From a virus, in UHGV virus genome UHGV-0387525: a stretch of DNA of 41,290 nucleotides, one strand, 5' to 3'. The notes below the pieces were generated by a model. The model was not told the origin of the DNA, made no database searches, and was given only the letters and a program-made list of their open reading frames with translations. Below are positions 12,389-20,300 of the stretch, piece by piece. The position numbers and the translations under genes were made by a program. The first letter of the stretch is position 1, and the number at the start of each line of letters is the position of its first letter.

Positions 12389-12492
12389 GTTAAATCTCCA
12401 GATAGTCGCAGCACCCGTTGCGCCGCATATCTGGTTATTCTATTACCTAAAAAACCATATATGGATAAAAAGACTATAAATACCAATAGATA

Positions 12493-12507
12493 TTACCTTT
12501 CGGGTAA
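12493..12507. promoter_or_regulatory. operator-like palindrome TTACC-N5-GGTAA
   Basis: ttacctttcgggtaa upstream of gene 12584..12841. Confidence 0.6.
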
Positions 12508-12544
12508 TTTGCAAAACGTGCTGGATAGCAAACAAATTATTTGT

Positions 12545-12564
12545 TACTGTATAAACATACAGTT
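12545..12564. promoter_or_regulatory. LexA (SOS) box
   Basis: TACTGTATAAACATACAGTT: CTGT-N8-ACAG, 17/20 match to TACTGTATATATATACAGTA. Confidence 0.7.
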
Positions 12565-12583
12565 ATTGCATGGAGAAGATAAG

Positions 12584-12841
12584 ATGCAGCAGTATCACTA
12601 TCCACTGGAAGACGGATTTACCGAAAGGATTCACACGCCGGGAGGCGTCAGGTCACTGGTGGAGGGATCGCACTTGATGAAATTACTCCGGGATCTCGAT
12701 AAGGATGGATTTAATGTCGATGGCCCACTTGCCGAACTGACTGCACTGATTAACTACGTCACCAGCTCACAGATGTCTATGCAGGATCTGCAAACACATC
12801 TCGACTATTGTGCCGAACAATTACGAAAACAAACCCGGTAA
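12584..12841 (+). CDS. small antirepressor-like protein (Tum-like), paralogous to C-terminus of Ant
   Basis: 85 aa; GGAGAAG RBS before ATG 12584; LMKLLRDLDKDGFNVDGPLAELTAL...MQDLQTHLDY aligns by eye with LMNLLNQLQEDGHDVSGAAAELTTM...LRDIQTHAEY at the end of 13990..14685. Confidence 0.55.
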   Translation: MQQYHYPLEDGFTERIHTPGGVRSLVEGSHLMKLLRDLDKDGFNVDGPLAELTALINYVTSSQMSMQDLQTHLDYCAEQLRKQTR

Positions 12842-12847
12842 ATTTAA

Positions 12848-12865
12848 AGGCCGCAAGAGCGGCCT
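12848..12865. terminator. bidirectional hairpin between convergent genes
   Basis: stem aggccgc/gcggcct, loop aaga; T-rich on both sides. Confidence 0.45.
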
Positions 12866-13592
12866 ATCGTTTCGCTTTGTGCTCGTCCCAGCACGTTTTG
12901 CACCATGCCATTAAGCCGTCCGCATTTTGATTATTAGGGTAAAAGCTGGTCCGTTTTCTGCGGACATTACAAATTGGGCACCACTTCATATGGCGTGTAT
13001 TCTTTGGGCCATCGAGACACCTTGCACACCACTTAGTCAATCCATCTGGATTTTTTGACGATTTCCGGAATTTGTCATATGGAAGGTTTATTCTGCATCG
13101 CAAACACTGCTTGCGGCCACTTGAAACTCTGTTAGCTGATTCTTCTTTTGGCGGCGATACAGAAGGTATTCTTGCTGGCTCTGATACTGCCTGAGGTGCT
13201 TTATTAGATGACTGAGACGATATGTCATCACCAGGGAATCTTCCATGATATGCCGGACGCGTTGACACTCCAGGTGGAAGCTCAGCTGTAAACGGCTTTG
13301 GCTGAATCAGTTGCCTCTCTTTTGCTAACTCCTGCTGTTTATAATATGTCTGGATTACCGCACTATCATAAGCAGGAGGTGCGGAAATATTAGGCGCATT
13401 ACCTCCAGTTTTTTGAAACTGAGTAGAGGTGTGTTCTATCACCTGTGTACGATTAATCGTTATCTCCCCATCTTCGGTCTTTATCGTTTTGTTATGATTA
13501 ACGACCGTACGATCAGAGATCTTAGTCTTGTTCTGGTTGATAACGTAAATAATCACCGCAACCACACCAACAACTATCCAGAAAACTTCCAT
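12864..13592 (-). CDS. membrane-anchored protein with tandem Cys-rich (zinc-ribbon-like) repeats
   Basis: 242 aa; N-terminal TM helix; two copies of C..C..N.DGL..WC..C pattern near C-terminus. Confidence 0.45.
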   Translation of the reverse strand: MEVFWIVVGVVAVIIYVINQNKTKISDRTVVNHNKTIKTEDGEITINRTQVIEHTSTQFQKTGGNAPNISAPPAYDSAVIQTYYKQQELAKERQLIQPKPFTAELPPGVSTRPAYHGRFPGDDISSQSSNKAPQAVSEPARIPSVSPPKEESANRVSSGRKQCLRCRINLPYDKFRKSSKNPDGLTKWCARCLDGPKNTRHMKWCPICNVRRKRTSFYPNNQNADGLMAWCKTCWDEHKAKR

Positions 13593-13705: not shown

Positions 13706-13720
13706 TTACCTTTGCGGTAA
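13706..13720. promoter_or_regulatory. operator-like palindrome overlapping promoter -10
   Basis: ttacctttgcggtaa; TTGATT (13677-13682), 18-nt spacer, TATCAT (13701-13706). Confidence 0.6.
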
Positions 13721-13989
13721 ATTTACATCGCACTCCTCTTGTGCCATAGTAATCGGGCACTGGCAAAATCCAGTGCCGGGATTGGCGTCCCGGATTACTA
13801 AAAGGCGCATTCACCGCGCAAGCGGTTTTTTTATGCGTATAGCACGGCCACATTCGTATTATGGTGGGCTGTGTGGGGGCACCGAAAGGTGCGCCGGGTC
13901 CTTTTAGCCGGTTACGCCAACCCTGCACAGTTCACCACCAACCGATTGGCGTCGGTAGTGGTGATTAACCAGACTAAAAGGTAACCACT
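13721..13989 (+). ncRNA. candidate structured leader / small RNA upstream of ant
   Basis: no credible ORF; hairpins at 13757-13778 and 13776-13793; terminator-like hairpin accgc-gcaa-gcggt + T7 at 13813-13832; decoy SD-like actaaaagg 13797-13805; anti-SD ccttttag 13900-13907. Confidence 0.35.
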
Positions 13990-14685
13990 ATGACAGCTAC
14001 AAAAAGCACGTCCATTTTTTCTTTCGAATCCCAAGCCGATATACGGGTAATCGTCATTAATGGTGAGCCATGGTTTATCGCTTCAGATGTTTGTCGGGCT
14101 ATAGGCATAGCAAACCATCGAGATGCTGTTCGAAAACTTGATGATGATGAGAAGGGCGTCGCTTCAACCGACACCCCTGGCGGTGAGCAAGAATCGATCA
14201 TCATCTCCGAGTCAGGCCTCTACACACTGATCCTCCGCTGCCGCGACGCAGTGACACCAGGCACTATCCCCTACCGCTTTCGCAAATGGGTTACAGGTGA
14301 GGTTCTTCCTCAGATCCGCCGCACCGGAAGTTACATTAAAAACTCGCTCCCGCAGGAAGAACGCATAAAGATGGTTGCCGACCAGGTAGCCAACGCCACA
14401 GCATCAGCAGTAATGCAGGCGATGAAGATAGAGAACAAAACCTACAGCGCCCCACTGAAGCCCGGCTACCGCAGCCTGATTCATTCTCCGTCTGGTGTTC
14501 TCGGCCTGACGGAGAACTCACTGCTGATGAATTTGCTGAACCAGTTGCAGGAAGACGGGCACGATGTATCGGGCGCGGCGGCGGAGCTGACAACCATGTT
14601 TTGCTACATCGTTGGTGTGAGTAAATGCCTGCGTGATATCCAGACTCACGCGGAGTACATCAACGACAAAGCAGGATTCTTCTGA
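13990..14685 (+). CDS. ant: antirepressor with N-terminal Bro-N domain
   Basis: 231 aa; Bro-N-like N-terminus (IRVIVINGEPWFIASDVCRAIGI...ESGLYTLILRCR); C-terminal segment paralogous to 12584..12841. Confidence 0.75.
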   Translation: MTATKSTSIFSFESQADIRVIVINGEPWFIASDVCRAIGIANHRDAVRKLDDDEKGVASTDTPGGEQESIIISESGLYTLILRCRDAVTPGTIPYRFRKWVTGEVLPQIRRTGSYIKNSLPQEERIKMVADQVANATASAVMQAMKIENKTYSAPLKPGYRSLIHSPSGVLGLTENSLLMNLLNQLQEDGHDVSGAAAELTTMFCYIVGVSKCLRDIQTHAEYINDKAGFF

Positions 14686-14757
14686 CGGGCGGCGGCACAG
14701 GGATGTGCCTTTAAATAATTCTGTACAGATTGCAGACCGGGGGTGAATAGCGTACTA

Positions 14758-14772
14758 TTACCTTAAAGGTAA
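14758..14772. promoter_or_regulatory. operator-like palindrome overlapping promoter
   Basis: ttaccttaaaggtaa; TTGCAG 14730-14735, 17-nt spacer, TACTAT 14753-14758. Confidence 0.6.
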
Positions 14773-14798
14773 ACCATGTGTTTACATGAGGAGGAGAT

Positions 14799-15008
14799 AT
14801 GGGATTTTGGTTCGCTCGTACAAAAACGAGGGATAATGCACCCAGCCCTCAGGCAAAAAATACAGAAGTTCCGGCGTCAGCGCAGGTTAACAAGCGTGGT
14901 GGTGTGTATATCTCATCACAGCAAATTTCTGAGCTTCCTGAGGTTAAGGAGATGCGTCGTCTCGCTGCTGCAATCGTTAAACAGGATCTTGCCACTGTAA
15001 GGAAATAG
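14799..15008 (+). CDS. small hypothetical protein
   Basis: 69 aa; GAGGAGG RBS before ATG 14799. Confidence 0.5.
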   Translation: MGFWFARTKTRDNAPSPQAKNTEVPASAQVNKRGGVYISSQQISELPEVKEMRRLAAAIVKQDLATVRK

Positions 15009-15871
15009 TGTTGTTAGCTCTTCTAATTATCCCCATTCTGGTTAGTGGTTATATTATGATAACCGCTAACCAGTATCATTATTTCCGTTTATACCGACAT
15101 GAAGGCCAGCTTCTTTATATGAAAGTAGCTGCATTAGGTACATATTGCCTTGTTGCTTCTGTAATAATTGCCACATTTATAAAATATAAATATCCTGATT
15201 TTCACCTAGTTCACGATATGGTGGAAACTTTTAATGTAACGTCAAAACCAGAAACAGATAGAATTTACATGTGGCTACTTCTTCTGTCAGTCACATCAAT
15301 TTGCTTCTCTTTGTGTTATGTATCTTTTGTTTGGCTAAAAGATCTTCTTTTAGGTTGTTTTTATAAACGTGATATTTATGACAAAATATCAGAGGCAATG
15401 AAAGCTAGGGTATTGCGAAAAACGTACTCCCAGGGTTCTTTAGATTTGCTATTGCTTGATGCAATCGAATCAGATCCTAAGAAACCAATGTTAATTACTT
15501 TATCATCAAATAAAGTATACGTTGGAATAATAAATGGTTCTGGTGAGCCAACGGAAAATCAAGGGCCACACCAACACATATCTTTTGTTCCTTTAATGTC
15601 AGGGTACAGAAACAAAGAAAATTTATCTGTTACATTTACAAACGCTTACCCAGGTGAAATCCAAATTAAGCGCAGTGCTGCGATAAAAGGGATAAGCAAA
15701 AAGAAAGTTCAAGGTCTAGAAATTATGGTATCTATAGACGAAATAAGTCATATATCATGGTTTGACTTTGAAGTATATAAGGCAACAAATAACAAAGTAG
15801 AAACAAAGGGTCATGTTGTTAATGTGACCAAAAATGGTCGCAACATATACTACAGAAGTGGCAGGAAATAA
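15008..15871 (+). CDS. polytopic membrane protein of unknown function (accessory gene)
   Basis: 287 aa; about three N-terminal TM helices then soluble domain; AT-rich; GTG start overlapping upstream stop, alternative ATG 15056. Confidence 0.5.
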   Translation: MLLALLIIPILVSGYIMITANQYHYFRLYRHEGQLLYMKVAALGTYCLVASVIIATFIKYKYPDFHLVHDMVETFNVTSKPETDRIYMWLLLLSVTSICFSLCYVSFVWLKDLLLGCFYKRDIYDKISEAMKARVLRKTYSQGSLDLLLLDAIESDPKKPMLITLSSNKVYVGIINGSGEPTENQGPHQHISFVPLMSGYRNKENLSVTFTNAYPGEIQIKRSAAIKGISKKKVQGLEIMVSIDEISHISWFDFEVYKATNNKVETKGHVVNVTKNGRNIYYRSGRK

Positions 15872-15895
15872 ATTTTACGCAGTTTAGGTGGCTTA

Positions 15896-16400
15896 TATGG
15901 ATAATACTATCTTAGGCGCATTGATAGGTGCTGTTATTGCTATAGTTTCCACTTATATAAATGCAGGACAAGGATACAAAAACAGCATAAGATTAGAGCG
16001 ACAAAAAATATTAAGGGATAAACGCGAGCAATTATTTATAAATTGTATACTTACTAAAAAAGTCATAGATTCAAGCACAATTACCATTCTCAATTTCGTA
16101 AAAAATGCCAGATACCACTCTGATAGTAAATTTGACGTATCAAGAGCGAATCCGTTGCAAACGATGGAAATGCTAATAAACATATACCTTCCTGAGTATA
16201 AAAAAGACTTACAAGAACTCAATAATGCGTATCAAGAATTTCACAAATACTACTCTCAATATACATGTGCACATACCTTCAAAAATATGCCTGATAATGA
16301 GAAGTCGAGGTTTATTGAGGAGGCTGATTTTTATGCAAAAAAGATATATGGCAAACTTAATGATATTAAGGACAAGATATCATTAAACTCAATAGTATAA
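15896..16400 (+). CDS. single-pass membrane protein of unknown function (accessory gene)
   Basis: N-terminal TM helix ILGALIGAVIAIVSTYI; AGGTGG RBS 5 nt before ATG 15896; AT-rich. Confidence 0.5.
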
Positions 16401-16476
16401 CAGCGATACTGCCGCTGACGGCTCCCGCTGCGGTGGGCGTTCTGCGGATTCCCGCCCGGGTGGCGGTGGCATTCGT

Positions 16477-16507
16477 TAAAAACAAGGCCGCGAAAGCGGC
16501 CTGTTTG
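16477..16507. terminator. bidirectional rho-independent terminator
   Basis: A-run, stem aggccgc/gcggcct with gaaa loop, T-rich tail; between convergent genes. Confidence 0.6.
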
Positions 16508-16508
16508 A

Positions 16509-17360
16509 TCACTGTGCAGTTTTCGCTGATCGATTTTCAGCTCTAAATTCAAGAACCGTTTCAATATTTCTTTCCTTCAGCATATCAATAACATTTTTAT
16601 TCATTTGACTATCACTGGTTAATAACTGGTAAACGTTGCTTCTCTCTTTATCAGAGTTTTCTTTAACAGCTGCTTTGCATGCCAAATGCTTATTGAAATT
16701 TTCTACATCGCTAGTACAGGAATTTACGGCTGCTGATGAAATATCAGACGCTGAAGAAACACCGTCATCCAAACGTTTTATAGCATTTTCTATACATGAG
16801 TTAAGGGAATAAACGACAACTGAGCGATACCCTTCAGACGCACACCATTCTAAATTTCTTGAAGGATCGAGTGGTTTTACTTCGCTGGATTGAATTAACT
16901 TGTCAAAAACTGACTTATATTCAATCTGTTTTTTATCTATAGCCCATACTTCAGTAGCTGATTTATAATTCCCCGTATGCCTATTAACATCAAATCCATG
17001 TTTTATAAGCAAATCTGCCCATGAAAGATTTATTGATTCATTGTTATGAGGCCATTTTCCTGTCAGAACCGCCCCCATAGACCCCATATATCCGCCATAT
17101 GATGGTATAGCACCATGGCTCAGTAACTTCTCTGCAACCACAGGGCAATTAATTACATAAGAGGCGTAAAGCCCATTCCATAAAGCCCCTCTATAGTAAT
17201 CGCCACGATTAGGTTCTTTTAAGTCGATAGCCTTTGATAATTGTTCGCACGTTTTGCATGCATCAAAGTTATCCTTATTGCATTGCAATGAACTGGCAGC
17301 TGTAGGATTTACAGAGACTATTGAAAGCACTATGCCAAAAAACAAATTTATTTTTTTCAT
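16509..17360 (-). CDS. secreted Cys-rich protein of unknown function
   Basis: 283 aa; Sec-type signal peptide MKKINLFFGIVLSIVSVNPTAAS; AT-rich; start 1 nt after the upstream virion gene. Confidence 0.5.
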   Translation of the reverse strand: MKKINLFFGIVLSIVSVNPTAASSLQCNKDNFDACKTCEQLSKAIDLKEPNRGDYYRGALWNGLYASYVINCPVVAEKLLSHGAIPSYGGYMGSMGAVLTGKWPHNNESINLSWADLLIKHGFDVNRHTGNYKSATEVWAIDKKQIEYKSVFDKLIQSSEVKPLDPSRNLEWCASEGYRSVVVYSLNSCIENAIKRLDDGVSSASDISSAAVNSCTSDVENFNKHLACKAAVKENSDKERSNVYQLLTSDSQMNKNVIDMLKERNIETVLEFRAENRSAKTAQ

Positions 17361-17361
17361 C

Positions 17362-20300
17362 CTATTTCATCTGCTCTTCAACTTTATTTAGTAATGGTGA
17401 TATCGCCCACAGATTCTGAAAAGGTAGCATTTTACGGACAGCGTGGGTTTGCTGGCTGTCAAATTCTCCGTTAAGTACACCATTTGCAACCGTCGCGGCA
17501 TCACCGCCAAGATCAAAGGTAGGACCAAGTAAAGCACCAATAGCATTACGACTCTGAAACCTTGATACCGGAGGCGCACCAAACATCGCGCCAAGACCAA
17601 ACCTACCGCCGCTTATGTTCTCAACGGTATTCAGCGGCTCAGAGAGCCAGCCAAGCATTCCGCCCCGGTCGATCCCCTCTTTCACAAGGTTATTCCAGCT
17701 GTAGTCGATATCGCGACCGCTTAACTTCTGTTTCATCATATAGACCATTGAGCCAAGCGCAATCGTGCCAAGCGCACCAAGATAGAATGCAGCATCGCCC
17801 TGCTGGATACCAGATACCAGCACCCTGTTATGCTGTGCGAAGATAAACGTTTTGAACTGCGTGATCATCTTCCAGCCTTCTTTACTAAAAAACAGCGGTG
17901 TATCACCTACGCCAGGCGTTACAATCACTGAGTCTACATCTTTCAGCACTGCAGACTGGAAAATCTCTCTAGCGAAACGGTCATCCCACAGATGACTATG
18001 CCCGGTTAACAGCCCGCCCATATCCTCTCCGTGCTTCCCGAATTGCTCCCCGATTCGGCGCAGAACATCTTCATTGATGCCGACCTGTGCCATCTTCCGC
18101 ATTTCACTTTTGGAGAGCGTGCCACCAGCAGAAACTTGGCGAGCCGCGTCAAGTATCCTCGACTGCACTATCATCCCAGACCATGATTTAAGTGCGCTGT
18201 TCCACTGATTCATCAGCGTCCAGTTACCGAATTTCTGCGTCATCCAGTTCAGACCTCGCTCAGCGGCGCTTCTCCGGCTATAGGGGTCAGTAAGATCCGC
18301 TATAGCCTTTGTACGCGTAGACAGGACATAATCAAGCCCAACTGCCATTTCTCGCAAATCCCTGGTTGCAATTTTCACTGAGTCCATATTTTTAAGCATG
18401 CTTACCATTGGTCCGAGAGATTTTCTCAGGCCATGCTGCATCATCGGTCGCATCAGATCAGTTGCAGCGGAGACAGTCATTCCACCAAGCAAACGGAGGA
18501 AGTTAATATTCCTAGCAACTCGCCCGGCACGAACAAAGAAACTGCGTGGATCTTGAGGTGCACCGTAAGTACCAAGCAGTCGATCACGCATAGCCGTAAT
18601 ATCCCTAATATCAGCCTCCCGTTGCTTCTCAAGAACTGCACGTCGTTTAGGTGTTTTAGCCTCTTTTATTAGCCGGGTATATTCCTCACTAACCTGACGG
18701 ATTTGCTCCCCCATATCTTTACGGCCAAACTGCGCAGTCAGCTCAATTTCTGGTGCCACCTGCCGGAGATAACTTTCCATGATGTAGTTAACATCTGATT
18801 CAAGAAAATCTTCTATACGCTCATCAGGAATAAGCAGCGTTCTGCTTTTAGTGAAACCAGCCCGACCAACGAGTCTCTCTGGGATAATATCGGCTGGTAC
18901 AAGCCCGGAAGGTGCGCCTATTATTTTATTCACGATCTCGTCAGCAGCGTCCTCTGCTTCCTCTCGGGATAGAGGCTCCATCTGCTTCAGTGCTCGCTCG
19001 CGGCTTGCATTCAGCCTTGTGGTTGAATTTGCCCGTTTTTGCAGTCGGCGAAGCTCAGAACGATATTTCCGTGGATTATCCAGCAACTCCATATGGCGCT
19101 GATAGACAGGAAGCTCACTCTTTGCCTGCGCTATATCATCAAGGCGTGTTTTAAGGTCAGAGCTTTCTTTCATCATTCTTGCCTGAAGTTTTTCTGATGA
19201 AGTCTCGGCCAACTCTTTTTCTATTCTTGTAAGACGCGCCTGTGTGTCAGTCTCCTGAGATATAAGCTTATTTCGTTTATCCAGTTCTTCCATGAGTAGA
19301 ATTTTTTTACCAGACCATTTCTCCGCTTCAGCGATTTCACTAGCGAGAGCATCAGCGCGCGGTGCTGATTCCTCTGCAGTTTTTAGCAATGAATTTATCT
19401 TTTCAATTCGCTGACCTGCTTTGTCAGCACCTTTGGCACTAATCCCTTGTATCCAGTTGGCAATTCGCCCTCTGAATTCAGTGCGGTCGGAAAGTATCTT
19501 ATCGAACTTATAAATGCGGGGAAGATAACTCTTCGCCGTCACGACATCGATATCCTCAGGAAGGATCCCCAATTCCTGCATACGGGCTTTTGTGGTCTCA
19601 AAAATGGGGCGGATTCTGGCGGCTGCTTGTGAAACCTCAGGAATATCACTCTGATCACCACGGCGCATAGCCATGCCAACAGCTTCATTGAAATCAATAA
19701 AGTTCATCCTCTTCACGCCGCGGGCGCTGACAGATTTGCTGTACTGCTGGTAAGCATCACGAGTAGCTTCCATCTGCTTATAAAGCATGGCGTCGTATTG
19801 CTTAATCTTAGTCTCGACTGCCGTAAACGTAGCCAACCCCTCATCATTTTTGGCGAAGAAATAGTTATTTTCGGCAAGCTGCTGGTTAATCTGACGGGAG
19901 ACAAGAGATGGTGATTGCGCCAAGCGGCCAGCAGGAGTGACACTCAACGTTTTGTTAGCAAGTCCAAGTCCAGCGAGCTGTTCCTGATCGAGTGTGGTAT
20001 TGAAAACCTGAGCTGCACCAATGCTTTGAGGAGAATCCATACCTCGCAAATGATTACCTACTGAGTTAACCACTGCCTCGCGCGCGCTAGGTCCAGCAAG
20101 TAGCTGTGCACCAGCACCAAGGATCCCACCAACGAGAGCATCAACAACAACGTTCGATACGCTCTCCATCGGTGAGCGAGCTTCCTGAGTGGCCTGTAAT
20201 GCGGCTTCTGATACTCCCCCACCAGCAGCATTCGCCAGGGCAAAACGCCCTGCCGTCTCAGCAATACTTCCTCCACGCGCTACCGCCCCTACAGGGATGA

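What the first reader, a model, noticed from the sequence alone, without database searches (positions are those of the whole stretch)
14758..16507. AT-rich membrane-protein cassette in an immI/sieA-like position
Three plus-strand genes (14799..15008, 15008..15871, 15896..16400) sit between the antirepressor and the virion genes, opposed to the late operon, driven by an operator-overlapped promoter and closed by a bidirectional terminator. The region is visibly AT-rich (21 G+C in the 60 nt at 15121-15180 by hand count). The products are a ~3-TM membrane protein with a ~180-aa soluble domain and a single-pass membrane protein; neither matches a family I recognise. The layout parallels P22 immI/sieA, so a lysogen-expressed superinfection-exclusion, abortive-infection or other defence function is plausible and could be novel.
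Basis: partly seen in the sequence, partly recalled or inferred. Interest (0 to 1): 0.75.

Follow-up and report, generated by a model that had tools for sequence, protein, structure and literature searches.

The report
Prophage membrane Sm-like two-gene cassette
The region is a cargo slot in an epsilon15/phiV10-like E. coli prophage, holding a widespread but uncharacterised gene pair (a small protein plus an inner-membrane protein with an Sm/Hfq-like domain) that keeps turning up in phage defence hotspots, followed by an unrelated single-pass membrane gene.

Summary
Three plus-strand genes lie between a Bro-N antirepressor and the virion genes, behind an operator-overlapped promoter and ahead of a shared hairpin terminator. 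Corrections: g3 starts at 15897, g1 is not AT-rich, and the AT-rich island runs to about 17400.

The three genes are not one system. g1 (69 aa) and g2 (287 aa) form an obligate, translationally coupled pair, found in every related locus examined. g3 is a rare add-on that replaced the 5' end of a small resident gene.

- **g2 family:** about 2,800 clusters at 50% identity, with no Pfam, NCBIfam, PADLOC or PDB match.
- **RNA feature:** a conserved terminator-like hairpin, with compensatory changes, lies inside the 5' end of the g2 reading frame. This suggests attenuation.
- **Distribution:** the pair occurs beside integrases, inside tail operons and in the P2 tin/old hotspot. There it is catalogued but untested as systems #57 and #43 of Rousset 2022, often next to known defence systems.

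No homology to P22 SieA was found. The promoter carries the prophage's dispersed repressor operator, so expression in the lysogen is doubtful. My best reading is a new candidate phage-conflict module. Function is unproven.

The parts
14694..14709 (+). Short hairpin (GGCACA-GGGA-TGTGCC) followed by TTTAAATAATT just after the ant stop codon. Probably a weak terminator separating ant from the cargo promoter.
   Evidence: Read from the sequence. Conserved in CE0007a and TL-2011b.
14730..14758 (+). Putative sigma-70 promoter of the cargo slot: TTGCAG, 17 nt, TACTAT.
   Evidence: Read from the sequence. It matches 7 of 12 consensus positions, below the scan threshold. It has the same geometry as the immI promoter TTGATT-18-TATCAT, which abuts the operator at 13706. 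Conserved in relatives that carry different cargo.
14758..14772 (.). Repressor operator TTACCTTAAAGGTAA, a perfect palindrome that overlaps the last base of the -10 hexamer and the transcription start region.
   Evidence: There are 15 copies of TTACC-N5-GGTAA in the window against 0.73 expected. Two copies lie between the CI-like repressor gene (461-1045) and a divergent small repressor-like gene. Other copies abut strong early promoters.
14799..15008 (+). g1: a 69-aa basic cytoplasmic protein (pI 10.4, no TM) and obligate partner of g2. It has a variable N-terminus followed by a conserved h-x-h-x-x-[RND]-G-x-h-x-h strand and a helix.
   Evidence: phrog_5739 at 3e-51. A homologous small ORF lies directly upstream of, or overlapping, the g2 homologue in all 41 viral loci checked and in the Providencia, Citrobacter and chromosomal loci. 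No Pfam or PDB match. 64 clusters, all 'hypothetical' or misnamed.
15008..15871 (+). g2: a 287-aa inner-membrane protein. It has three TM helices (about 2-20, 33-61 and 81-118; predicted N-out, C-in), two short helices, and then an Sm/LSm/Hfq-like beta domain (about 145-267), inferred cytoplasmic from the positive-inside rule. Invariant residues are Y37, G44, K169, Y171, P195, S198, G199, R201 and Y214.
15038..15073 (+). Terminator-like RNA hairpin inside the 5' end of the g2 reading frame (codons 11-22). The stem is 15 bp, the loop 6 nt, followed by UAUCAUUAUU. A candidate attenuator that limits g2 relative to g1.
   Evidence: Flagged by the terminator scan. The 111-nt context folds at -32.6 kcal/mol, z = -4.8. 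In 11 distinct homologues 89% of cells are paired, against 17-61% when the partners are slid. Compensatory changes occur at two pairs, and many G-U pairs point to sense-strand RNA. An equivalent hairpin is present in the Rousset #57-type locus. A different 12-bp hairpin followed by a T-rich run lies about 80 nt into the ORF in SEN5 and the Klebsiella phage.
15897..16400 (+). g3: a 167-aa single-pass membrane protein with an N-terminal anchor (5-23) and a basic helical domain, inferred cytoplasmic. A separable add-on, not a core part of the g1-g2 module.
   Evidence: phrog_36918. Only 13 clusters. Present in 8 of 5,426 complete E. coli genomes against 28 for g2. Most g1-g2 carriers lack it. Homologues at 55-59% identity follow unrelated genes. 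No Pfam, PADLOC or PDB match.
16405..16479 (+). 3' remnant of the slot's resident 53-aa signal-peptide protein gene ('transmembrane anchored protein'). Its 5' part was replaced when g3 was inserted.
   Evidence: PGAP annotates it as a pseudogene in the 99.4% identical record.
16485..16502 (.). Shared hairpin terminator (AGGCCGC-GAAA-GCGGCCT). It closes the plus-strand cargo and the convergent minus-strand late operon.
   Evidence: Terminator scan, minus strand, with tail TGTTTTTAAC. The plus-strand tail GTTTGAT is weaker. Conserved across relatives and annotated as a terminator in phiV10.

Best explanation
The finding covers a cargo slot of an epsilon15/phiV10-like prophage holding two independent accessory units.

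**Unit 1, the g1-g2 pair.** This is a mobile two-gene module of a large uncharacterised family.
- g2 is an inner-membrane protein. Its three conserved TM helices anchor a cytoplasmic Sm/Hfq-like domain.
- By analogy with Sm proteins, I infer that this domain forms a 6-7-mer ring and binds a nucleic acid, a nucleotide or g1.
- g1 is a small soluble partner translated just ahead of g2.
- A conserved terminator-like hairpin early in the g2 frame should keep g2 scarce relative to g1.

I infer that the pair is a phage-conflict module of the abortive-infection or exclusion type. The cytoplasmic Sm-like ring would sense an infection cue at the membrane, and the TM bundle would be the effector, acting by membrane permeabilisation or by blocking DNA entry. 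g1 would act as an antitoxin-like restraint or adaptor.

**Regulation in this phage.** The module sits behind a promoter that carries the phage's own repressor operator. It is probably switched on with the early/ant regulon, on infection or induction, rather than expressed constitutively in the lysogen.

**Unit 2, g3.** This is an unrelated single-pass membrane moron inserted later.

**Shown:** gene structure, pairing, family size, fold, hairpin conservation, operator statistics, genomic contexts.
**Inferred:** topology, oligomerisation, ligand, toxicity, any anti-phage effect, timing of expression.
For: - **Obligate pair across 22-99% g2 identity.** A g1-like ORF lies directly upstream of, or overlapping, g2 in all 41 viral loci and in the other loci checked.
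- **Accessory and mobile.** The slot flanks occur in 499 of 5,426 E. coli genomes, but g2 in only 28. The pair is found in epsilon15-like, lambda/P22-like and P2-like prophages, at prophage ends or next to integrase, inside tail operons, and as a stand-alone chromosomal islet.
- **Defence-hotspot location.** The pair lies between P2 repA and portal Q in SEN5 and in a Klebsiella phage, where it sits next to bSEFIR. Direct neighbours in 27 non-redundant loci include IetA/IetS (two loci), type II RM, PDC-M01A/B and PtuA.
- **Catalogued by Rousset et al. 2022.** Table S5B lists it in the E. coli P2 hotspot as system #57 (75 occurrences, g2-like plus g1-like) and #43 (93 occurrences). Homology is confirmed at 36% identity with E 8e-56, and by hhalign probability 99.8%.
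- **Conservation pattern.** The strongest conservation is in TM1 and in the Sm-like loops (KVYVG, P-x-x-SGYR), while the predicted periplasmic loop varies. This points to a cytoplasmic ligand.
- **Tight control of g2.** The stop and start codons overlap, and there is a conserved intragenic terminator-like hairpin.
- **The slot also hosts a toxin in a relative.** TL-2011b carries a small ORF plus a YafO toxin there.
Against: - There are no functional data of any kind. The systems are not among those tested by Rousset et al.: no motif match in Tables S2A/S2B.
- No PADLOC model matches.
- The operator at the promoter suggests little expression in a stable lysogen. That fits poorly with classical prophage-encoded host protection.
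- Only about a fifth of the sampled loci have a recognised defence neighbour. Many lie among tail genes or next to integrase, which marks them as morons but not specifically as defence genes.
- Ring formation, ligand binding and the topology are inferred. Phobius, as used by Rousset et al., called the first helix a signal peptide. If that is right, the Sm-like domain would be periplasmic.
- The hairpin lies in a strongly conserved peptide motif, so part of its conservation is due to coding constraint.
Confidence: 0.45

Rival explanations
1. g1-g2 is a toxin-antitoxin-like addiction module that stabilises the mobile element. g2 is a membrane toxin and g1 is its labile antitoxin. There is no dedicated anti-phage role.
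For: - A small upstream gene overlaps a larger one.
- g2 expression is attenuated.
- The same slot carries a small ORF plus a YafO toxin in TL-2011b.
- A stand-alone chromosomal copy exists.
Against: - g1 matches no known antitoxin or DNA-binding family.
- A large, strongly conserved Sm-like sensor-type domain is not needed for a simple membrane toxin.
- Many TA modules also act in defence, so this rival overlaps with the best explanation.
Confidence: 0.15
2. The pair acts in the phage's own lytic or early programme, not in lysogen protection. It might exclude superinfecting phages during lytic growth (like T4 imm/sp), modulate the membrane or lysis timing, or tether RNA at the membrane.
For: - The promoter carries the same operator, in the same geometry, as the immI and early promoters.
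- The pair lies next to the c4/isrK-ant switch.
- In several lambdoid loci it lies inside the tail operon on the same strand.
Against: - In P2-like phages it occupies the tin/old locus, whose genes are expressed from the prophage according to established P2 biology and Rousset 2022.
- It is dispensable: most phages of this type lack it.
- It also occurs outside prophages.
Confidence: 0.2
3. SieA-type superinfection exclusion in the narrow sense. An inner-membrane protein jams the incoming ejection-protein conduit of related podoviruses. g3, or g2, would be a functional analogue of P22 SieA.
For: - The gene order matches P22: ejection genes, sieA, immI, tailspike.
- SieA is a small three-TM inner-membrane protein (PMC10883804).
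- g3 is restricted to epsilon15-like prophages.
Against: - There is no sequence similarity and no FxRYPxEAxxFNK motif.
- g3 has one TM, not three.
- g2's family spans P2-like, lambdoid and non-phage contexts and several bacterial orders. This argues against a target as specific as one phage group's ejection proteins.
Confidence: 0.1
4. These are lysogenic-conversion or neutral cargo with no role in phage conflict, for example envelope or stress physiology or virulence.
For: - The sequence is AT-rich and looks foreign.
- The neighbouring secreted Cys-rich ORF at 16509-17360 could be a host-interaction factor.
- Some hotspot cargo is not defensive, according to Rousset 2022.
Against: - There is no enzyme, adhesin or toxin domain.
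- Strict pairing, attenuation and recurrence in defence hotspots fit a conflict module better.
Confidence: 0.1

Closest known systems
Rousset et al. 2022 P2-hotspot systems #57 and #43 (Table S5B, PMC9122126); PHROG families 3630 and 5739
   Same: - True homologues. The #57 protein 1 is 36% identical to g2 (E 8e-56), and its protein 2 is a g1 homologue. #43 is in the family (hhalign probability 99.8%).
- The two-gene organisation is the same.
- They are located in a validated anti-phage hotspot.
   Different: - They are only catalogued: no Pfam, no name, and they are not in the tested sets.
- They sit in P2-like myoviruses at the tin/old locus. Here the pair sits in an epsilon15-like podovirus behind a repressor-controlled promoter.
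P22 SieA (inner-membrane superinfection-exclusion protein)
   Same: - Equivalent map position, between the ejection-protein genes and immI/tailspike.
- Small prophage-borne inner-membrane proteins with three TM helices, in the case of g2.
   Different: - No sequence similarity or motif.
- SieA is 162-164 aa with no large soluble domain.
- SieA acts alone and is confined to P22-like phages. g2 needs a conserved partner gene and is spread over many phage types.
Membrane effectors fused to small ligand-binding domains: CBASS Cap15 (TM plus beta-barrel), type III CRISPR Cam1/Csx23, and lambda RexB with RexA. This comparison rests on my own knowledge of the literature.
   Same: The architecture logic is shared: N-terminal TM helices plus a compact cytoplasmic sensor domain, oligomerising to disrupt the membrane. 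All are carried on mobile elements.
   Different: - There is no cyclase, CRISPR or RexA-like partner.
- The sensor is an Sm-like fold, not a Cap15 barrel, CARF or SAVED domain.
- There is no sequence match in PADLOC.
- The activity is untested.
Sm/LSm/Hfq proteins and WYL domains
   Different: - No Sm1/Sm2 or Hfq sequence motifs, and no Pfam hit.
- It is membrane-anchored.
- There is an insertion between beta4 and beta5.
- Ring formation and RNA or ssDNA binding are not shown.
MscS-type mechanosensitive channels. This architectural analogy is from my own knowledge.
   Same: About 286 aa, with three TM helices followed by a cytoplasmic Sm-like beta domain. MscS forms heptameric rings.
   Different: - No MS_channel Pfam hit in 50 family members.
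- There are extra helices between TM3 and the beta domain, and no alpha-beta domain.
- Homology is not supported.

Membership tests
P22 SieA superinfection-exclusion family | Sequence similarity to SieA types A-C, including the conserved FxRYPxEAxxFNK motif. | tested here: not met
   BLASTP of g2 and g3 against P22 SieA gave E 1.4 and 3.5. The motif is absent from both. Motif and family description are from PMC10883804.
P22 SieA superinfection-exclusion family | A 160-200-aa inner-membrane protein with three or four TM helices and no large soluble domain. | tested here: not met
   g2 has three TM helices plus a soluble domain of about 175 aa. g3 has a single TM.
P22 SieA superinfection-exclusion family | Gene located between the ejection-protein genes and immI/tailspike of a P22-like prophage. 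| tested here: inconclusive
   The relative position is equivalent. The phage, however, is epsilon15/phiV10-like, not P22-like.
P22 SieA superinfection-exclusion family | Blocks DNA injection across the inner membrane. | not testable with these tools
   This needs K+ efflux or DNA-entry assays.
Sm/LSm/Hfq fold | An N-terminal helix followed by a strongly bent five-stranded antiparallel sheet. | tested here: met
Sm/LSm/Hfq fold | Sm1/Sm2 (or Hfq) sequence motifs detectable by family HMMs. | tested here: not met
   No LSM or Hfq Pfam hit for g2 or for 50 family members. No PDB sequence hit with the family profile.
Sm/LSm/Hfq fold | Hexameric or heptameric ring that binds RNA. | not testable with these tools
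   No multimer prediction or biochemistry was available.
Known anti-phage defence systems (PADLOC-DB v2.0.0) | A significant match to any component HMM. | tested here: not met
   No hits at E<=1 for g1, g2, g3 or the neighbouring ORF. None either for g1/g2 homologues from three phages.
Rousset 2022 P2-hotspot system #57 (uncharacterised two-gene cargo) | Homologous large membrane protein plus homologous small partner, encoded adjacently. | tested here: met
   36% identity with E 8e-56 for the large protein. The small protein of #57 equals the g1-family member of locus L046. The g1 profile finds the partner in all loci.
Type II toxin-antitoxin module | A small upstream gene overlapping or abutting a larger downstream gene in one operon. 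| tested here: met
   The TAG stop of g1 overlaps the GTG start of g2. The same coupling is seen in homologous loci.
Type II toxin-antitoxin module | Antitoxin with a recognised DNA-binding or antitoxin fold, and a toxin of a known family. | tested here: not met
   No Pfam or PDB match for the g1 family or for g2.
Type II toxin-antitoxin module | Toxicity of the large protein, neutralised by the small one. | not testable with these tools
   This needs expression experiments.
MscS mechanosensitive channel family | Match to the MS_channel profile (TM3 plus beta domain). | tested here: not met

The most novel reading that the evidence does not exclude
g1-g2 may define a new, widespread class of phage-defence or exclusion system. 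In this reading, an inner-membrane-anchored Sm/Hfq-like ring detects invading nucleic acid, or an infection-induced ligand, at the cytoplasmic face of the membrane. It then gates its own TM bundle, either to depolarise the cell or to block genome entry. The ring would be held in check by a small partner protein and by an intragenic transcriptional attenuator. This would be the first membrane-tethered Sm-like immune sensor.
Probability: 0.3. Interest if true: 0.8.

Novelty: new variant of a known kind. Interest (0 to 1): 0.55.

Why it matters
The family is large: about 2,800 clusters at 50% identity. It spans Enterobacterales, Pasteurellaceae, Pseudomonas, Legionella and Shewanella.

It recurs in the best-validated prophage defence hotspots, yet it has no Pfam entry, no name and no tested function.

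Its architecture is a conserved three-helix membrane anchor fused to an Sm-like domain, always with a small partner gene and an attenuator-like hairpin. To my knowledge this is not that of any described defence, exclusion or toxin system.

If it is anti-phage, it would add a new sensor-effector design. It would also give function to 168 catalogued P2-hotspot loci in E. coli alone.

The repressor-operator promoter raises a second question. Some prophage cargo may be deployed only during infection or induction rather than in the resting lysogen.

Tried and rejected
- **Family libraries.** Pfam, NCBIfam and PADLOC scans of g1, g2, g3 and the neighbouring ORF gave nothing significant. Pfam scans of 50 diverse g2 homologues and 22 g1 homologues also gave nothing.
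- **PDB sequence searches.** Searches with the g2 and g1 profiles, g3 and the 283-aa ORF gave only chance-level hits.
- **Structure libraries.** Foldseek against BFVD found no full-length analogue. The afdb50 library was unavailable.
- **SieA homology.** Rejected.
- **SD-sequestering stem.** The MFE fold pairs the g2 Shine-Dalgarno and start codon with a downstream anti-SD. This stem is not conserved: 50% of cells are paired, the same as in the controls. I dropped it. Only the inner hairpin is supported.
- **g3 as a third component.** Rejected as obligate. g3 is absent from most g1-g2 carriers, and distant g3 homologues follow unrelated genes.
- **Rst_2TM_1TM_TIR.** I considered this because the Klebsiella phage locus has a SEFIR gene downstream. 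The AC1 proteins in Table S2A lack the family motifs, and the SEFIR gene matches the single-gene bSEFIR model.
- **Literature searches.** Searches by RefSeq accession and by 'Sm-like/LSm' plus anti-phage terms found nothing relevant.
- **Locus search.** Alignment A3 was too diverse for this, so I used A1 instead.
Full report

The ORF list and the sequence show g1 at 14799-15008 (69 aa, AGGAGG 4 nt upstream). g2 is at 15008-15871 (287 aa), and its GTG start overlaps the g1 TAG stop. g3 is at 15897-16400 (167 aa). RefSeq annotates the same three CDS in a 99.4% identical E. coli chromosome.

Upstream lies a Bro-N antirepressor at 13990-14685 (Pfam 2e-21; several PHROG 'anti-repressor' families). 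A homologous Bro-N protein acts as an anti-repressor in the related phage ZX5 (PMC9782041). Downstream, on the opposite strand, are a 283-aa ORF and the 1129-aa DUF919 virion protein.

GC is 0.34 for g2 and 0.31 for g3, against 0.478 for the window, and the hand count of 21 G+C in 15121-15180 is exact. However, g1 is not AT-rich (0.476). The AT-rich island continues to about 17400 and includes the minus-strand ORF.

Hydropathy gives three TM segments plus about 175 soluble residues for g2, and one N-terminal TM for g3.

**2. What the locus is.** The window is an epsilon15/phiV10-like (Uetakevirus-type) E. coli prophage. The interval between the antirepressor gene and the convergent terminator is a variable cargo slot.
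- It is empty in phiV10.
- It holds a small ORF, a YafO-family toxin and a 53-aa signal-peptide protein in TL-2011b.
- It holds g1, g2 and that 53-aa gene in E. coli CE0007a and K_EC180.
- It holds g1, g2 and g3 here.

Alignments show that the upstream hairpin, the promoter and the operator are conserved across different cargos, and sequences diverge right after the operator. At the 3' side the window keeps only the last ~75 nt of the 53-aa gene, so g3 was inserted at the expense of its 5' part.

Among 5,426 complete E. coli genomes, 499 match some part of the 14700-17400 query, for most of them only short stretches of it. Only 28 carry g2 and 8 carry g3. All eight g3 carriers also carry g1-g2.

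**3. g1 and g2 are an obligate pair; g3 is separable.** tblastn and a pattern scan of IMG/VR found g2 relatives (22-99% identity) in 75 viral loci and in named phages:
- Cronobacter phiES15, next to int/attP;
- Salmonella SEN4/SEN5 and Klebsiella ST15-OXA48phi14.1, between repA and portal;
- Pseudomonas vB_Pae_U5/U6, at the genome end.

In every locus examined a 53-114-aa ORF ends within a few bases of, or overlaps, the g2 start. These ORFs form one family, with a variable N-terminus, then an h-x-h-x-x-[R/N/D]-G-x-h-x-h strand, then a helix. A profile of that family also finds the ORF in the six loci that my first heuristic had missed or called in the wrong frame. It finds it in the Providencia, Citrobacter and chromosomal loci as well.

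g3 has only 13 clusters. Its 85%-identical relatives follow g1-g2 in epsilon15-like prophages. Relatives at 55-59% identity follow unrelated genes.

**4. The g2 family and its fold.** A profile search of 1.84 billion cluster representatives found 2,782 proteins at E<=1e-3 and 1,633 at E<=1e-10, nearly all 240-310 aa. Named members come from Yersinia, Pantoea, Pseudomonas and Legionella. g1 relatives also come from Pasteurellaceae and Shewanella.

None of 50 diverse members has a Pfam domain. The family profile hits no PDB sequence, and there is no NCBIfam or PADLOC match. PHROGs holds the families (3630, 5739, 36918) as 'unknown function'.

With a 50-sequence alignment, AlphaFold2 gives pLDDT 86.7 and pTM 0.77. 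The model has three long TM helices (2-20, 33-61, 81-118), two short helices, and a beta domain.

Invariant residues cluster in TM1 and loop 1 (L11, G14, G33, Y37, G44) and in the Sm-like strands (K169, Y171, P195, S198, G199, R201, Y214).

By the positive-inside rule, loop 1 and the flank after TM3 are basic while loop 2 is not. On that basis the N-terminus is outside and the Sm-like domain is cytoplasmic. This is an inference. Phobius, as used by Rousset et al., called helix 1 a signal peptide.

**5. A conserved hairpin inside g2.** The terminator scan flagged a 15-bp stem at 15038-15073, 30 nt into the g2 frame, followed by a U-rich stretch. The 111-nt context folds at -32.6 kcal/mol, z = -4.8.

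In 11 distinct homologues, down to about 39-48% protein identity, 89% of stem cells stay paired, against 17-61% when the partners are slid. Two pairs show compensatory changes: UA/CG/AU at 60-73 and CG/UA/UG at 63-70. Many G-U pairs are tolerated, which indicates a sense-strand RNA structure rather than a DNA palindrome.

The Rousset #57-type locus has a different but complementary pair of arms at the same codons.

The distant SEN5 and Klebsiella subfamily instead has a 12-bp hairpin about 80 nt into the ORF. It is followed by TTTTTATGTA in SEN5 and TTTTTTTGTGG in the Klebsiella phage, which makes it a canonical intrinsic terminator.

I read this as attenuation that keeps g2 low relative to g1. 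An outer stem that would sequester the g2 ribosome-binding site is not conserved, and I rejected it.

**6. Regulation.** TTACC-N5-GGTAA occurs 15 times in the window (0.73 expected).
- Two copies lie between a CI-like repressor gene (461-1045) and a divergent small repressor-like gene.
- Others abut strong early promoters, for example TTGACA-16-TAATTA|TTACC at 1165 ahead of the RecE-like genes.
- Two flank the immI promoter, upstream of the isrK-like and C4 antisense RNAs that precede ant (Rfam E 5e-16 and 2e-14).

The site at 14758 is a perfect palindrome. It touches the -10 hexamer exactly as the site at 13706 does: TACTAT|TACC compared with TATCAT|TACC.

It implies that the cargo belongs to the repressor regulon and is probably not expressed, or only weakly, in a stable lysogen. 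My recollection is that a very similar 17-bp operator was described for epsilon15 by Kropinski et al. 2007. I could not check this here.

**7. Evidence for a phage-conflict role.** In P2-like phages the pair lies between repA and portal Q, which is the tin/old hotspot. In the Klebsiella phage it is followed by a bSEFIR gene (PADLOC 7e-103).

Among 122 immediate neighbours in 27 non-redundant viral loci, PADLOC finds IetA/IetS (two loci), a type II RM pair, PDC-M01A/B and a PtuA-like ATPase. PHROGs shows integrases in seven loci, along with tail genes and anti-repressors, all of which are moron positions.

Most directly, Table S5B of Rousset et al. 2022 lists 169 cargo systems of the E. coli P2 hotspot, drawn from 18,150 loci. 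Two of them belong here:
- System #57: 75 occurrences, no Pfam, a g2-like protein plus a g1-like protein.
- System #43: 93 occurrences, a single g2-family protein.

Homology is confirmed at 36% identity with E 8e-56, and by hhalign probability 99.8%. Neither system's motifs appear in the tables of tested systems. The family is therefore catalogued but untested.

**8. Mechanism and rivals.** My best reading, at confidence 0.45, is that g1-g2 is an abortive-infection or exclusion-type module. The cytoplasmic Sm-like domain would be the sensor: oligomeric, and binding a nucleic acid, a nucleotide or g1. The conserved TM bundle would be the effector. g1 would be an excess-produced restraint or adaptor.

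Four observations favour a cytoplasmic sensor and a potentially toxic effector over a SieA-like periplasmic jam:
- the conservation pattern (cytoplasmic parts invariant, periplasmic loop variable);
- the spread over unrelated phage types and non-phage sites;
- the TA-like coupling;
- the attenuator.

The rivals are a plain addiction TA module (0.15), a lytic or early-programme function suggested by the operator (0.2), narrow SieA-type exclusion (0.1), and non-conflict cargo (0.1). None can be excluded without experiments.

**9. Comparison with known systems.** There is no membership in the SieA family, in any PADLOC system, in MscS, or in Sm/Hfq at the sequence level. The shared fold with Sm/LSm/Hfq and the resemblance to WYL sensors are structural only. 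True membership holds only for the unnamed Rousset #57/#43 and PHROG 3630/5739 families.

**10. Verdict.** The locus is real. It is an accessory cargo slot, and g1-g2 is a credible, uncharacterised candidate conflict module with an unusual membrane-anchored Sm-like architecture and a conserved attenuator. Function is unproven. The 'three-gene, lysogen-expressed, SieA-like' picture needs revising. Interest is 0.55.

Noticed in passing
window 13744-13942 (+): The antirepressor is preceded by a P1/P7-type immI leader: a c4 a1b1 target element (13744-13796, 45.1 bits, just under the Rfam gathering score of 46.7), an isrK-like Hfq-binding RNA (13757-13832, E 5e-16) and a C4 antisense RNA (13857-13942, E 2e-14). 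Immunity here is therefore P1-like (c4-ant), not P22-like (arc/mnt/sar).
   Followed up: partly
window 343, 391, 1103, 1165, 6889, 12493, 13613, 13706, 14758, 32488, 35677, 35695, 39194, 39256, 41195: Fifteen dispersed copies of the palindrome TTACC-N5-GGTAA (0.73 expected) form a genome-wide repressor regulon, reminiscent of P1's scattered C1 operators. Several overlap the -10 or +1 of strong promoters. Pairs lie 18-93 bp apart.
   Followed up: partly
window 16509-17360 (-): A 283-aa AT-rich ORF (GC 0.37) lies at the very end of the late operon. It has an N-terminal signal-like sequence, 8 Cys, and weak ankyrin/DARPin-like matches. It belongs to phrog_6118 (unknown function). It is 99.8% identical in phage EC.W1-9 but replaced by other small ORFs in relatives, so this is a second variable cargo slot, convergent on the same terminator.
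   Followed up: partly
window 12864-13592 (-): A 242-aa ORF has an N-terminal TM segment and two C-terminal CxxC zinc-ribbon repeats, with weak Stc1 and endonuclease VII/Lar-like PHROG matches. In the otherwise 99% identical GPEC1186 prophage, this position instead holds a YafO-family toxin plus a hypothetical gene. This is a third variable slot.
   Followed up: no
window 12461-12841 (+): A 126-aa ORF matches only the C-terminal part of Ant-type anti-repressors (phrog_450). An operator copy lies inside its 5' end at 12493. It may be a truncated or split second antirepressor.
   Followed up: no
L003 5083-5111 and L002 5084-5110 (Klebsiella ST15-OXA48phi14.1, Salmonella SEN5): Canonical intrinsic terminators (12-bp stem plus a T-rich run) lie about 80 nt inside the g2-homologue coding sequence. 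This is a different position from the hairpin in the window's subfamily, which suggests that an intragenic attenuator was retained or arose independently.
   Followed up: partly
L100 2-538 (metagenomic contig): A distant g3 homologue (55% identity) is preceded by an unrelated protein with an N-terminal TM and a helical domain. From memory it looks DUF4760-like, which I did not test. Proteins with the g3 layout may belong to a broader class of single-TM helical cargo proteins.
   Followed up: no
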